A stretch of 64,000 nucleotides of DNA from a virus (lineage: Duplodnaviria; Heunggongvirae; Uroviricota; Caudoviricetes), in the IMG/VR virus record IMGVR_UViG_2541047712_000002; one strand, 5' to 3'. Shown here piece after piece: positions 63,001-64,000 of the stretch. The position numbers were made by a program. Numbering within the stretch: position 1 is the stretch's first letter; the number at the start of each line of letters is the position of its first letter.

Positions 63001-64000
63001 AATTGGTGGTGTTGATGGTTATTATACAATCAAAGTAAATAAGTTTATAGTTAATGGGGTTAGTAGGGAAGTTAGGTATGTAGACACTAACAAGAAAGTT
63101 GATTTTATTTTACCTGAGACCGCAGTTCACACTGCGATTGGAGGTGAAGATTATAGCGTTGACGTTAACTTAATGCTAAACATAGCTTTCTATTTTAATC
63201 CAAATACATCCTTAGGCAATTACAGTATTTTTACAACTGGCGAGTTTCATCTCCAAGCTCTTTAATAGGAGCTTTTCGGCCATGATTTAACCACTATATT
63301 ATGGCCATTTTTTACCCCCCCCCTTATCTTCACTGAAAAATTTTGATAGCACGCAATAAGGGTTAGGAGTGATGTTAGATTTTCTTCAGGCCCATAGAAT
63401 GATTCCATACTTACTATGTATGGAATCATTACTAAAAATGAGTTACTTTGACTCTTGATCCTATAAGAATCTATGCCTAATATACTGTTTACTTATACAG
63501 TGTATCGACGTAACTCGGTGATTGTCATATGAAAAATAGCTTTGACAGAGCACGCGCAGCGGAGAACACCTCAAAAGAGGCGATTGAGTATCTCGAAAGA
63601 GCATCTCAAATGCAGGCCGTTATGATCTCGCAGGTTAGCAATGACATGAGATTCTCAGACGCATTCATGTTATTCACTCGCTTATCTCTGCTGATAACAA
63701 GACGTCGACCAGAGATCGCTGTTCATTGTATTTTGATACATGTTTTGCCGCACATTGCAGATATAAAAGTAAGTGACATTAATAGGTTCATGGTGAACCA
63801 ACTGGTCAACCCACTAATACTGGATGGCAAAATTGTTATGGGCCGCCGCGTTTTCTCTCTGATGAAGCAGTTCCTTAGCTGGTGTGCCTTCCAGGGGATG
63901 ATCGACGTATCACCATTAAACGATATGTCACTGAATAAAGTTGCCGGTGGCGCAAAGCCAACACCTCGCGAACGGAAGCTGACCGACGCAGAGGTATGGG

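What the first reader, a model, noticed from the sequence alone, without database searches (positions are those of the whole stretch)
63280..64000. Tyrosine integrase beginning at the window edge, preceded by a 12-bp inverted repeat and lacking an obvious N-terminal arm-binding domain
The integrase-like ORF starts at 63529 directly with core-binding-domain-like sequence. Upstream lies AATGATTCCATA-(9 nt)-TATGGAATCATT (about 63395-63428), a candidate recombinase-binding or att-core-like site. This may be the start of a separate island to the right, or the right-end recombination module of the element that fills most of this window.
Basis: partly seen in the sequence, partly recalled or inferred. 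Interest (0 to 1): 0.35.

Follow-up and report, generated by a model that had tools for sequence, protein, structure and literature searches.

The report
Plasmid recombinase with its own lox-like site
The window ends in a tyrosine recombinase gene of a phage-plasmid, preceded by that enzyme's probable 33-bp palindromic target site; the pair most likely keeps the plasmid monomeric, as Cre/loxP does for phage P1, rather than marking the edge of an integrated island.

Summary
An ATG at 63529 opens a tyrosine recombinase gene that the window cuts after 157 codons. Identical plasmids give the full 367-aa protein with the catalytic domain. The inverted repeat is 13-7-13: AATGATTCCATAC-ttactat-GTATGGAATCATT, 63398-63430.

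The window is not a chromosomal island. It is an SSU5/pHCM2/pMT1-like phage-plasmid. In 5,426 complete E. coli genomes the module occurs only on plasmids, one site per replicon.

All 75 full-length homologous loci examined carry the same palindrome upstream of the gene, always with a 7-bp spacer. These include Yersinia pestis pMT1, Salmonella Typhi pHCM2 and non-phage Pantoea and Rahnella megaplasmids. Two arm positions change together in both arms as the protein diverges.

The family lacks the arm-binding domain that its nearest relatives have. The spacer drifts between close relatives.

My best explanation is a Cre/loxP-like self-recombination (multimer-resolution) module, here under a LexA box. 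This is inferred, not demonstrated.

I found no description of the site in the searched literature.

Unexplained extras:
- Homology between plasmids starts exactly at the palindrome's outer edge, next to a variable cargo bay (fimbriae here, the F1 capsule operon in Y. pestis).
- Four conserved one-armed copies of the site all point towards it.

The parts
63398..63410 (+). Left arm of the palindromic site (AATGATTCCATAC). The conserved core is TGATTCCATAC, 63400-63410.
   Evidence: The 11 core positions are symmetric in 48-50 of 50 distinct sites from 75 loci.
63411..63417 (+). 7-bp asymmetric, AT-rich spacer (ttactat); the presumed strand-exchange region.
   Evidence: The spacer is 7 bp in all 75 loci, and its sequence drifts between close relatives. 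Its role in strand exchange is inferred by analogy with loxP, FRT and the lambda core.
63418..63430 (+). Right arm (GTATGGAATCATT), the perfect reverse complement of the left arm.
63455..63483 (+). Tentative sigma-70 promoter of the recombinase gene: TTGATC (63455-63460), 17 nt, TAATAT (63478-63483).
   Evidence: Read. Both hexamers are conserved in the alignment of 8 plasmids. The match is only 8 of 12, so the consensus scan did not flag it. Inferred.
63483..63502 (+). LexA (SOS) box TACTGTTTACTTATACAGTG, i.e. CTGT-N8-ACAG, overlapping the -10 hexamer and the likely start region.
   Evidence: It is conserved at the same place in the E. coli, Yersinia, Salmonella, Klebsiella, Cronobacter and Kluyvera phage-plasmids. 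In Klebsiella it reads TACTGTATATAAATACAGTA. It is absent from the megaplasmid homologues (10 of 75 loci have it). LexA binding itself was not tested.
63529..64000 (+). 5' part (codons 1-157 of 367) of the tyrosine recombinase: an N-terminal helical region plus the core-binding domain. The catalytic domain lies beyond the window.
   Evidence: (Phage_int_M, 24 bits).
57503..63397 (+). Variable cargo bay between grxA and the palindrome. Here it holds a low-GC (about 34%) PapB-regulated chaperone-usher fimbrial operon: regulator 58591-58887, subunit 58999-59640, chaperone 59693-60361, usher 60306-62735, fimbrial-like protein 62750-63265.
   Evidence: Other family members carry different genes here: the caf1 operon in pMT1, a YafO toxin, and a colicin E1 immunity gene. 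Homology resumes at exactly 63398.
54691..54703 (+). Isolated one-armed copy of the site (AATGATTCCATAC followed by ATCAC), about 200 bp upstream of tRNA-Asn, pointing towards the palindrome. Function unknown.
   Evidence: Syntenic exact copies occur in pHCM2 and in a Klebsiella plasmid.
53680..53692 (+). Second isolated one-armed copy (AATAATTCCATAC, one mismatch here; exact in other E. coli plasmids, pHCM2, SSU5 and Klebsiella), also pointing towards the palindrome.

Best explanation
The gene and the palindrome form a self-contained site-specific recombination module of an extrachromosomal phage-plasmid.

Proposed mechanism (inferred). Two recombinase monomers bind the 11-13-bp arms. They cleave at the edges of the 7-bp spacer. 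Two identical sites, brought together on a plasmid dimer or multimer, are exchanged through a Holliday-junction intermediate. This returns the plasmid to monomers so that its partition system can segregate it. That is the job Cre/loxP does for P1 and ResD/rfsF does for F (my own knowledge).

The enzyme descends from DUF4102-type (P4/SXT-like) integrases but has lost the arm-binding domain. It is therefore a 'simple' recombinase with no built-in directionality control.

In the SSU5-like phage-plasmids, including this window, a LexA box overlaps the promoter. Expression should therefore rise during the SOS response, when RecA-driven multimer formation and prophage induction both occur.

Shown: the gene, the fold, the missing domain, the site, its strict linkage and co-variation with the gene, and the plasmid-only distribution.

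Inferred: binding, cleavage positions, the resolution function and the LexA control.
For: 1. Linkage. The 11-bp-arm, 7-bp-spacer palindrome lies upstream of the gene in 75 of 75 full-length loci. It ends 47-255 bp before the start of the gene match. The loci span 42-100% protein identity.
2. Co-variation. Arm positions 4 (T/C) and 9 (T/G) switch in both arms together: 50 of 50 and 48 of 50 distinct sites stay symmetric. Symmetry decays outside the arms. TGATTCCATAC goes with the SSU5-like proteins. TGACTCCAGAC goes with the 44-50%-identical proteins.
3. The palindrome follows the recombinase, not its neighbours. Megaplasmid homologues keep it although they lack the adjacent HTH gene.
4. Three Chimaeribacter genomes each carry two family members with different arms (L017-019 versus L062, L067, L070). 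This is what is expected if each enzyme needs a private site.
5. Plasmid-only distribution with one site per replicon. Of 252 places found in E. coli genomes, none is chromosomal. The protein search found 1,078 PLSDB plasmids, 985 of them non-mobilizable.
6. Architecture. There is no arm-binding domain. The model is a two-domain core-binding plus catalytic protein. Its best fold matches are lambda Int 75-356 and Tn1549 Int 82-397. No excisionase-like neighbour is annotated.
7. Spacer drift. The spacer differs between close relatives: ttactat and ctactat in E. coli, ctattaa in Yersinia and Salmonella, ttggtag in Klebsiella. It occurs in both orientations relative to the gene. A site that only ever meets its own copy tolerates this. 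An attP that must match a fixed chromosomal attB does not.
8. Phage SSU5 grows lytically and lacks a 7.5-kb segment that contains the site, the gene and the putative repressor. The module therefore belongs to the plasmid or lysogenic lifestyle.
9. Precedent for the inference. A palindrome near a Cre-type recombinase gene proved to be the real target in about half of the tested cases (PMC10250229). Phage-plasmids are expected to encode dimer-resolving recombinases (PMC7969092).
Against: - No experiment: binding, cleavage and resolution are all inferred.
- A LexA-repressed promoter is not the obvious design for a housekeeping resolvase.
- The canonical His of the HxxR motif is Arg (R281), invariant in the family. 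Activity is assumed, not shown.
- Four conserved one-armed copies of the site are not explained by a simple resolution model.
- The exact coincidence of the homology boundary with the outer edge of the palindrome is not explained either.
- I did not check whether these plasmids also carry a Xer (cer-like) site that could do the same job.
Confidence: 0.6

Rival explanations
1. Integration module. The palindrome is an attP core, and the recombinase inserts the phage-plasmid into a chromosome or another replicon. This is.
For: The nearest relatives outside the family are DUF4102-type integrases. Databases annotate the gene as 'site-specific integrase'. Phage-plasmids have been proposed to alternate between integrated and plasmid states (PMC7969092).
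Against: - No chromosomal copy of the gene or the site was found in 5,426 complete E. coli genomes.
- No record holds two sites, as an integrated or cointegrated form would.
- There is no arm-binding domain, which is described as essential for mobility of element-borne integrases (PMC8138268).
- The spacer drifts between close relatives.
- Homologues sit on 165-569-kb plasmids that are not phages.
Confidence: 0.07
2. Operator only. The palindrome is a transcriptional operator, either for autoregulation by the recombinase acting purely as a DNA-binding protein or for another regulator. No recombination takes place there.
For: The palindrome ends 24 bp upstream of the tentative -35 hexamer. Isolated one-armed copies exist that could not be recombined but could be bound. 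The His-to-Arg change at R281 might hint at altered catalysis.
Against: - Arg I, Lys, Arg II, His III and the nucleophile Tyr are invariant over 36 sequences down to 43% identity. That argues for retained catalysis.
- At least one arm-domain-bearing relative also has Arg at the His-II position.
- Arms of 11-13 bp around a fixed 7-bp spacer are the standard geometry of a tyrosine-recombinase core site.
- The palindrome stays with the recombinase where the neighbouring HTH gene is absent.
- Autoregulation and recombination are not mutually exclusive.
Confidence: 0.1
3. Cargo dock. The site works like an integron attI, and the recombinase captures or exchanges accessory operons immediately outside the palindrome.
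For: - In every pairwise comparison, homology between plasmids begins at the first base of the left arm (63398).
- The adjacent segment carries different accessory genes in different lineages: fimbriae here, the caf1 F1-capsule operon in Y. pestis, a YafO toxin, a colicin immunity gene.
- The gene points away from the site, and a LexA box controls it. Integron integrases share both traits (my own knowledge).
Against: - No second site, even a degenerate one, lies at the far end of or inside the cargo regions. The best matches equal the shuffled expectation.
- The left boundary is simply the end of the conserved grxA gene.
- Five lineages share about 30 bp to the left of the arm, so not all junctions are at the arm edge.
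- No integrase remnants were found in the cargo.
- Selection to keep an intact site next to freely replaceable DNA could give the same picture.
Confidence: 0.12
4. Phage-cycle function. The recombinase acts after infection or induction, for example by circularising incoming terminally redundant DNA or processing replication products. Cre can do this for P1.
For: The LexA box is present only in the phage-plasmid members. A member of the group, Cyrano, is induced by ciprofloxacin (PMC9928086).
Against: SSU5 propagates as a phage without the gene or the site. Non-phage megaplasmids keep the module. The position of the site relative to the packaging ends is unknown.
Confidence: 0.08

Closest known systems
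Cre/loxP of phage-plasmid P1, and Cre-type systems such as Dre/rox and Vika/vox
   Same: A two-domain tyrosine recombinase without an arm-binding domain. A palindromic site with 13-bp arms around a short asymmetric spacer, lying upstream of the recombinase gene on a plasmid prophage. One site per replicon. The predicted role is multimer resolution.
   Different: - Not a sequence relative of Cre: there was no PDB sequence hit at E<=1, and fold matches to Cre (E 0.04-0.08) are far weaker than to lambda Int (5e-7).
- The spacer is 7 bp, not 8.
- The promoter carries a LexA box.
- Activity is untested.
DUF4102-type (P4 / CP4-57 / SXT-like, 'IntSXT') integrases
   Same: These are the closest sequence relatives outside the family (25-34% identity). 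They share the central domain, the catalytic-domain motifs DLRRT and NHS...VYDRHDY, and the ER.LTD.E linker.
   Different: The defining N-terminal arm-binding domain (PF13356) is absent, which makes the protein about 90 residues shorter. It scores 35 bits against a 434-bit cut-off for NCBIfam PRK09692. It sits on plasmids next to a simple palindrome rather than at a tRNA-linked attachment site.
Plasmid-borne tyrosine resolvases such as ResD/rfsF of F (recalled from my own knowledge, not tested here)
   Same: A recombinase gene with its single target site just upstream, on a large low-copy plasmid with its own partition system.
   Different: No sequence comparison was made here, and the site sequence is unrelated as far as I recall.
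Integron IntI/attI
   Same: A simple tyrosine recombinase, SOS (LexA) control, a site upstream of the gene, and variable accessory genes starting right beyond the site.
   Different: There are no attC-like second sites or cassette array. The site is a perfect duplex palindrome rather than attI plus folded attC.

Membership tests
Tyrosine recombinase superfamily (Pfam PF00589) | Catalytic-domain profile match above the curated threshold. | tested here: met
   The full-length protein, taken from an identical plasmid, scores 40 bits against a cut-off of 27.1, E 4.5e-10. The part inside the window holds only the N-terminal half.
Tyrosine recombinase superfamily (Pfam PF00589) | Two-domain core-binding plus catalytic fold. 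| tested here: met
   AlphaFold model, mean pLDDT 83. Foldseek probability is 1.0 to lambda Int 75-356 (target TM-score 0.72-0.73) and to Tn1549 Int, XerA/XerH, IntI and Cre.
Tyrosine recombinase superfamily (Pfam PF00589) | Catalytic Arg I, Lys, Arg II, His/Trp III and the Tyr nucleophile. | tested here: met
   R185, K211, R284, H307 (Gln in two members) and Y316 are invariant or nearly invariant in 36 sequences. I assigned residues to roles by motif analogy, not by structural superposition.
Tyrosine recombinase superfamily (Pfam PF00589) | His II of the HxxR motif. | tested here: not met
   The motif reads RDLRR, with R281 invariant in the family. Most arm-domain relatives read HDLRR, and one (P0119) also has R.
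IntSXT / P4-like 'complex' integrases | N-terminal DUF4102 (PF13356) arm-binding domain. | tested here: not met
   No Pfam hit. None of the listed full-length homologues at 42% identity or more carries PF13356, whereas homologues at 34% or less do. The alignment shows about 90 extra N-terminal residues only in the latter. The model N-terminus is helical, with no beta-sheet.
IntSXT / P4-like 'complex' integrases | Whole-protein match to the curated integrase model (NCBIfam PRK09692). | tested here: not met
   35 bits against a cut-off of 434. The match covers model positions 137-393 only.
Cre/loxP-type simple recombinase and site systems | A palindromic target: two arms of about 11-14 bp around a 6-8-bp asymmetric spacer, genetically linked to the gene. 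| tested here: met
   A 13-7-13 site at 63398-63430. It is present in 75 of 75 loci, and the arms co-vary.
Cre/loxP-type simple recombinase and site systems | Sequence membership in the Cre family. | tested here: not met
   No phmmer hit to any PDB chain, including Cre, at E<=1. Foldseek E to Cre is 0.04-0.08.
Cre/loxP-type simple recombinase and site systems | The recombinase alone recombines two copies of the site. | not testable with these tools
   This needs an excision assay.
Plasmid multimer-resolution systems | Located on an extrachromosomal replicon, one site per replicon, never integrated. | tested here: met
   In E. coli the 45-bp site query matched 252 genomes, all on plasmids, 0 chromosomal. 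Each record gave the same palindrome on both strands. A protein search with the recombinase matched 1,078 PLSDB plasmids.
Plasmid multimer-resolution systems | Loss of the system increases multimers and plasmid loss. | not testable with these tools
   This needs genetics.
Integron (IntI, attI, attC cassettes) | An array of cassettes bounded by attC-type second sites. | tested here: not met
   No second site above the shuffled expectation was found in six cargo regions.
FimB/FimE-type fimbrial switch recombinases | Inverted repeats flanking an invertible promoter segment of a fimbrial operon. | tested here: not met
   The arms are 7 bp apart. The module is the same in plasmids without any fimbrial operon.

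The most novel reading that the evidence does not exclude
The palindrome is more than a resolution site. It would be the anchor of a recombinase-organised region of the phage-plasmid. On one side lies a cargo dock where accessory operons are exchanged exactly at the arm edge, such as the Y. pestis F1 capsule (caf1) operon and this fimbrial operon. Around it lie four conserved one-armed sites, all pointing towards the palindrome, which the same enzyme binds for a purpose not seen in Cre, Xer or integron systems. That purpose might be polarity, long-range synapsis or SOS-timed regulation.
Probability: 0.15. Interest if true: 0.7.

Novelty: new member of a known kind. Interest (0 to 1): 0.42.

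Why it matters
This phage-plasmid family is widespread in Enterobacterales. About 4.6% of complete E. coli genomes carry the module. Y. pestis pMT1 and S. Typhi pHCM2 belong to the family.

The recombinase is a persistent gene of the family, annotated only as 'integrase'. Calling it an integrase misleads prophage and island callers.

If the prediction holds, the module explains how these roughly 110-kb low-copy replicons stay monomeric. It would also supply two natural, probably orthogonal lox-like systems with a 7-bp spacer (arms TGATTCCATAC and TGACTCCAGAC) for genome engineering.

The family is also a case of an arm-domain integrase lineage that reverted to a simple recombinase.

The sharp boundary between the site and a virulence-gene cargo bay deserves a direct test.

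Tried and rejected
- Terminator or RNA hairpin. No terminator-like site was found at 63200-63700. The stem is AT-rich with no T-run. The rare asymmetric positions in homologous sites are not wobble-type. The palindrome stays with the downstream gene while the upstream genes change.
- Fimbrial phase-switch recombinase. Rejected: the arms are 7 bp apart, and the module is present without fimbriae.
- The 55-aa minus-strand ORF 63262-63429 ('MIPYIV...') simply starts at the ATG inside the right arm. I regard it as spurious.
- Second or degenerate sites bounding the cargo. None above chance.
- Remnants of a family integrase inside the cargo regions, prompted by the pMT1 annotation 'YPMT1.85, fragment of integrase' (PMC5015843). 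tblastn found nothing with E<0.1.
- One-armed copies as deletion endpoints. The SSU5 7.5-kb deletion does not end at them.
- One-armed copies co-varying with B-type arms. The B-type phage-plasmid Drgb1 has none in 40 kb, so this test was uninformative.
- Rfam. Only tRNAs were found in the window.
- Literature. Full-text searches for the arm sequences and for an SSU5, pMT1 or pHCM2 integrase function returned no description of the site.
- Whole-plasmid reconstruction. The window is not co-linear with pTHO-010-2 over its full length: about 1.5 kb differs near the window start. Whole-plasmid counts are therefore for a composite sequence.

Full report
**1. What is in the sequence**

An ATG at 63529, preceded by GGTGA, opens a frame that runs to the window end, giving 157 codons. 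This part matches only the central domain of phage integrases (PF22022, 24 bits, just below threshold).

Upstream lies a perfect palindrome: AATGATTCCATAC (63398-63410), ttactat (63411-63417), GTATGGAATCATT (63418-63430). The true form is 13-7-13.

In 20 Markov simulations of the window, no perfect inverted repeat with a spacer of 12 nt or less exceeded 11 bp.

**2. Where the window comes from and what lies downstream**

The last 801 bases are 100% identical to several E. coli plasmids of about 113 kb. They are about 96% identical, from 63391 rightwards, to some 200 more. All 252 places found are on plasmids and none on a chromosome.

The neighbouring genes identify an SSU5/pHCM2/pMT1-type phage-plasmid (PMC7969092). 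They are:
- phage tail and terminase genes within the window;
- a tRNA cluster;
- repA, dnaE, cobT-like, nrdAB and thyA genes beyond the window.

In the identical plasmid the ORF continues to 367 aa. That protein has a Phage_integrase domain (40 bits against a cut-off of 27.1).

In alignments of 24 and 36 family members, R185, K211, R284 and Y316 are invariant and H307 nearly so. The first His of the usual HxxR motif is an invariant Arg, R281.

**3. The protein family**

Homologues down to about 42% identity are all 340-395 aa with PF22022 and/or PF00589. None has the DUF4102/PF13356 arm-binding domain.

The next relatives (34% identity or less, 360-464 aa) all carry that domain. An alignment shows it as roughly 90 extra N-terminal residues.

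The AlphaFold model has mean pLDDT 83. It is helical throughout the first 200 residues. Its best fold matches are the arm-domain-less constructs of lambda Int (75-356) and Tn1549 Int (82-397). XerA/XerH, IntI and, more weakly, Cre follow. No PDB chain matches by sequence.

In the published classification this is a lineage of the DUF4102-bearing IntSXT group that has become a 'simple' recombinase. That study describes the arm-binding domain as essential for the mobility function of element-borne integrases (PMC8138268).

**4. The palindrome belongs to the recombinase**

I collected 12 annotated plasmid loci and 64 genome contigs that encode relatives. One of the 64 holds only a gene fragment.

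All 75 full-length loci have the palindrome upstream of the gene (it ends 47-255 bp before the start of the gene match). The spacer is always 7 bp, and at most one mismatch occurs per 11-bp arm.

Over 50 distinct sites, the 11 core arm positions are mirror-symmetric in 48-50 cases. The three positions outside the arms are symmetric in only 21-39.

Two positions exist in two states and switch in both arms together:
- TGATTCCATAC accompanies the SSU5-like proteins of E. coli, Yersinia, Salmonella, Klebsiella, Cronobacter, Kluyvera, Buttiauxella and Chimaeribacter.
- TGACTCCAGAC accompanies the 44-50%-identical proteins of Pantoea, Erwinia, Rahnella, Ewingella, Xenorhabdus, Photorhabdus, Morganella and Pectobacterium.
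- A few sites are mixed.

The megaplasmid members (165-569 kb) are flanked by ordinary metabolic, transport and T6SS genes. They lack the HTH gene that follows the recombinase in phage-plasmids, yet they keep the palindrome.

Three Chimaeribacter genomes each contain two family members with different arms.

These facts tie the palindrome to the recombinase as its recognition site.

**5. What it most likely does**

The following points fit a self-recombination (multimer-resolution) system of the Cre/loxP kind:
- one site per replicon, and only on plasmids;
- no arm-binding domain;
- no excisionase-like neighbour;
- presence on plasmids that are not phages;
- a spacer that drifts between close relatives and occurs in both orientations relative to the gene: ttactat, ctactat, ctattaa, ttaatag, ttattag, ttggtag.

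The spacer drift matters. Two sites on a dimer are always copies of each other, so spacer changes cost nothing. An attP overlap region would have to keep matching a chromosomal attB.

Phage SSU5 itself was isolated as a lytic phage. Compared with pHCM2 it lacks 7.5 kb containing the site, the gene, the neighbouring HTH gene and a 70-aa gene. In phage Cyrano that HTH gene is annotated as the putative repressor (PMC9928086). The module is therefore dispensable for lytic growth and belongs to the plasmid or lysogenic state.

The approach of pairing a recombinase gene with a nearby palindrome was validated experimentally for about half of the Cre-type candidates tested (PMC10250229). That pipeline required 8-bp spacers and Cre-like proteins, so it would not have found this family.

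**6. Regulation**

Between the palindrome and the start codon, the phage-plasmid members share three elements:
- TTGATC (63455-63460);
- 17 nt further on, TAATAT (63478-63483);
- a CTGT-N8-ACAG LexA box (63483-63502). In Klebsiella it reads TACTGTATATAAATACAGTA.

Ten of the 75 loci, all SSU5-like, have the strict box. The megaplasmid members have none.

The promoter assignment is tentative: the match is 8 of 12 and the scan did not flag it. SOS control is inferred. It would fit the ciprofloxacin induction of Cyrano.

**7. Two observations that the simple model does not explain**

(a) In every pairwise comparison, homology between family members begins at the first base of the left arm, 63398. 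The segment between grxA and the palindrome differs between lineages:
- a low-GC PapB-type chaperone-usher fimbrial operon here;
- the caf1R-M-A-caf1 F1-capsule operon in Y. pestis pMT1;
- a YafO toxin;
- a colicin E1 immunity gene;
- hypothetical genes.

This suggests a docking function. However, no second site bounds the cargo, and five lineages share about 30 bp outside the arm.

(b) Beyond the palindrome, the plasmid carries isolated copies of one arm, (A/G)TGATTCCATAC followed by AYC. There are two exact copies and two near-exact ones, against 0.09 exact copies expected by shuffling. Their positions are:
- two upstream (window 53680 and 54691, + strand);
- two downstream (inside the recombinase gene and 263 bp into dnaE, - strand).

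All four point towards the palindrome. The same four, at the same syntenic places and with the same polarity, occur in Salmonella pHCM2 and in a Klebsiella plasmid whose DNA is only about 75% identical. The two downstream ones occur in pMT1.

In a diverged Klebsiella lineage, the outer base of the arms and of the one isolated copy seen change together (ATG to GTG).

A B-type phage-plasmid has none in 40 kb. Their role is unknown.

**8. Comparison and verdict**

Functionally the module resembles Cre/loxP and other plasmid tyrosine resolvases. By descent it belongs with DUF4102-type integrases, whose defining domain it lacks. It is not an integron and not a fimbrial switch.

I found no description of the site or of the enzyme's function in the searchable literature. 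The family is mentioned only as 'integrase' or 'tyrosine recombinase'.

I rate it a new, uncharacterised member of a known kind of system. Confidence in the resolution role is moderate (0.6). Interest is moderate. It is raised somewhat by the sharp cargo boundary next to the plague F1 operon and by the polar one-armed sites.

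Noticed in passing
window 53680-53692 and 54691-54703; L001 8946 and 14260 (- strand); L079 14441, 20026, 26494, 27518; L081 15438, 16438, 22511, 28025: Four isolated one-armed copies of the recombinase site (TGATTCCATAC plus AYC) lie at syntenic positions in the E. coli, Salmonella and Klebsiella phage-plasmids. All are oriented towards the palindrome. Two lie inside coding sequences (the recombinase gene and dnaE), where synonymous positions are conserved. Function unknown.
   Followed up: partly
window 57503-63397, compared with L002, L003, L004, L005, L012: A hypervariable cargo bay lies between grxA and the palindrome. 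In Y. pestis pMT1 the whole caf1 (F1 capsule) chaperone-usher operon occupies the place where this plasmid has a PapB-regulated chaperone-usher fimbrial operon. Homology resumes at exactly the first base of the palindrome.
   Followed up: partly
window 63483-63502: A canonical LexA box overlaps the recombinase promoter. It is conserved in the SSU5-like phage-plasmids only.
   Followed up: partly
L080 (phage SSU5, JQ965645) 42642-42673, compared with L079 (pHCM2) 18663-26197: The type phage SSU5 is a 7.5-kb deletion derivative of a pHCM2-like phage-plasmid. It lacks the extra tRNAs, phoH, grxA, the recombinase with its site, and the putative repressor. This may explain its lytic behaviour.
   Followed up: partly
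window 54140-54690: A conserved non-coding stretch of about 550 bp with long hairpins (for example GGAGGGAACATTCATGTTCCCTCC at about 54328-54351) lies upstream of the tRNA cluster. It is 97% conserved between SSU5 and pHCM2 and about 75% conserved in pMT1. It has no Rfam match. RefSeq annotates a 133-nt 'tRNA-OTHER' further downstream, at the position of this window's tRNA cluster.
   Followed up: no
window 55693-57030 (- strand): A 445-aa ORF with no significant Pfam match lies between the tRNA cluster and grxA. Its length and sequence differ between family members: RefSeq calls a 1197-nt CDS at this position in the identical plasmid, versus 909 nt in pRM9131-1. It is another variable slot.
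   Followed up: no
L077 4383-6722 (pTHO-010-2), compared with L079 5887-6963 (pHCM2): The plasmid's RecA-like 'recombinase' gene is more than twice as long in the E. coli plasmid and is annotated there as a LAGLIDADG homing endonuclease. This suggests an intein insertion.
   Followed up: no
L017-L019 and L062, L067, L070 (Chimaeribacter genomes): Each of three Chimaeribacter genomes carries two members of the recombinase family on different contigs. Their site arms differ: TGATTCCATAC versus the mixed pair TGACGCCAGAC / TGACTCCATAC.
   Followed up: partly
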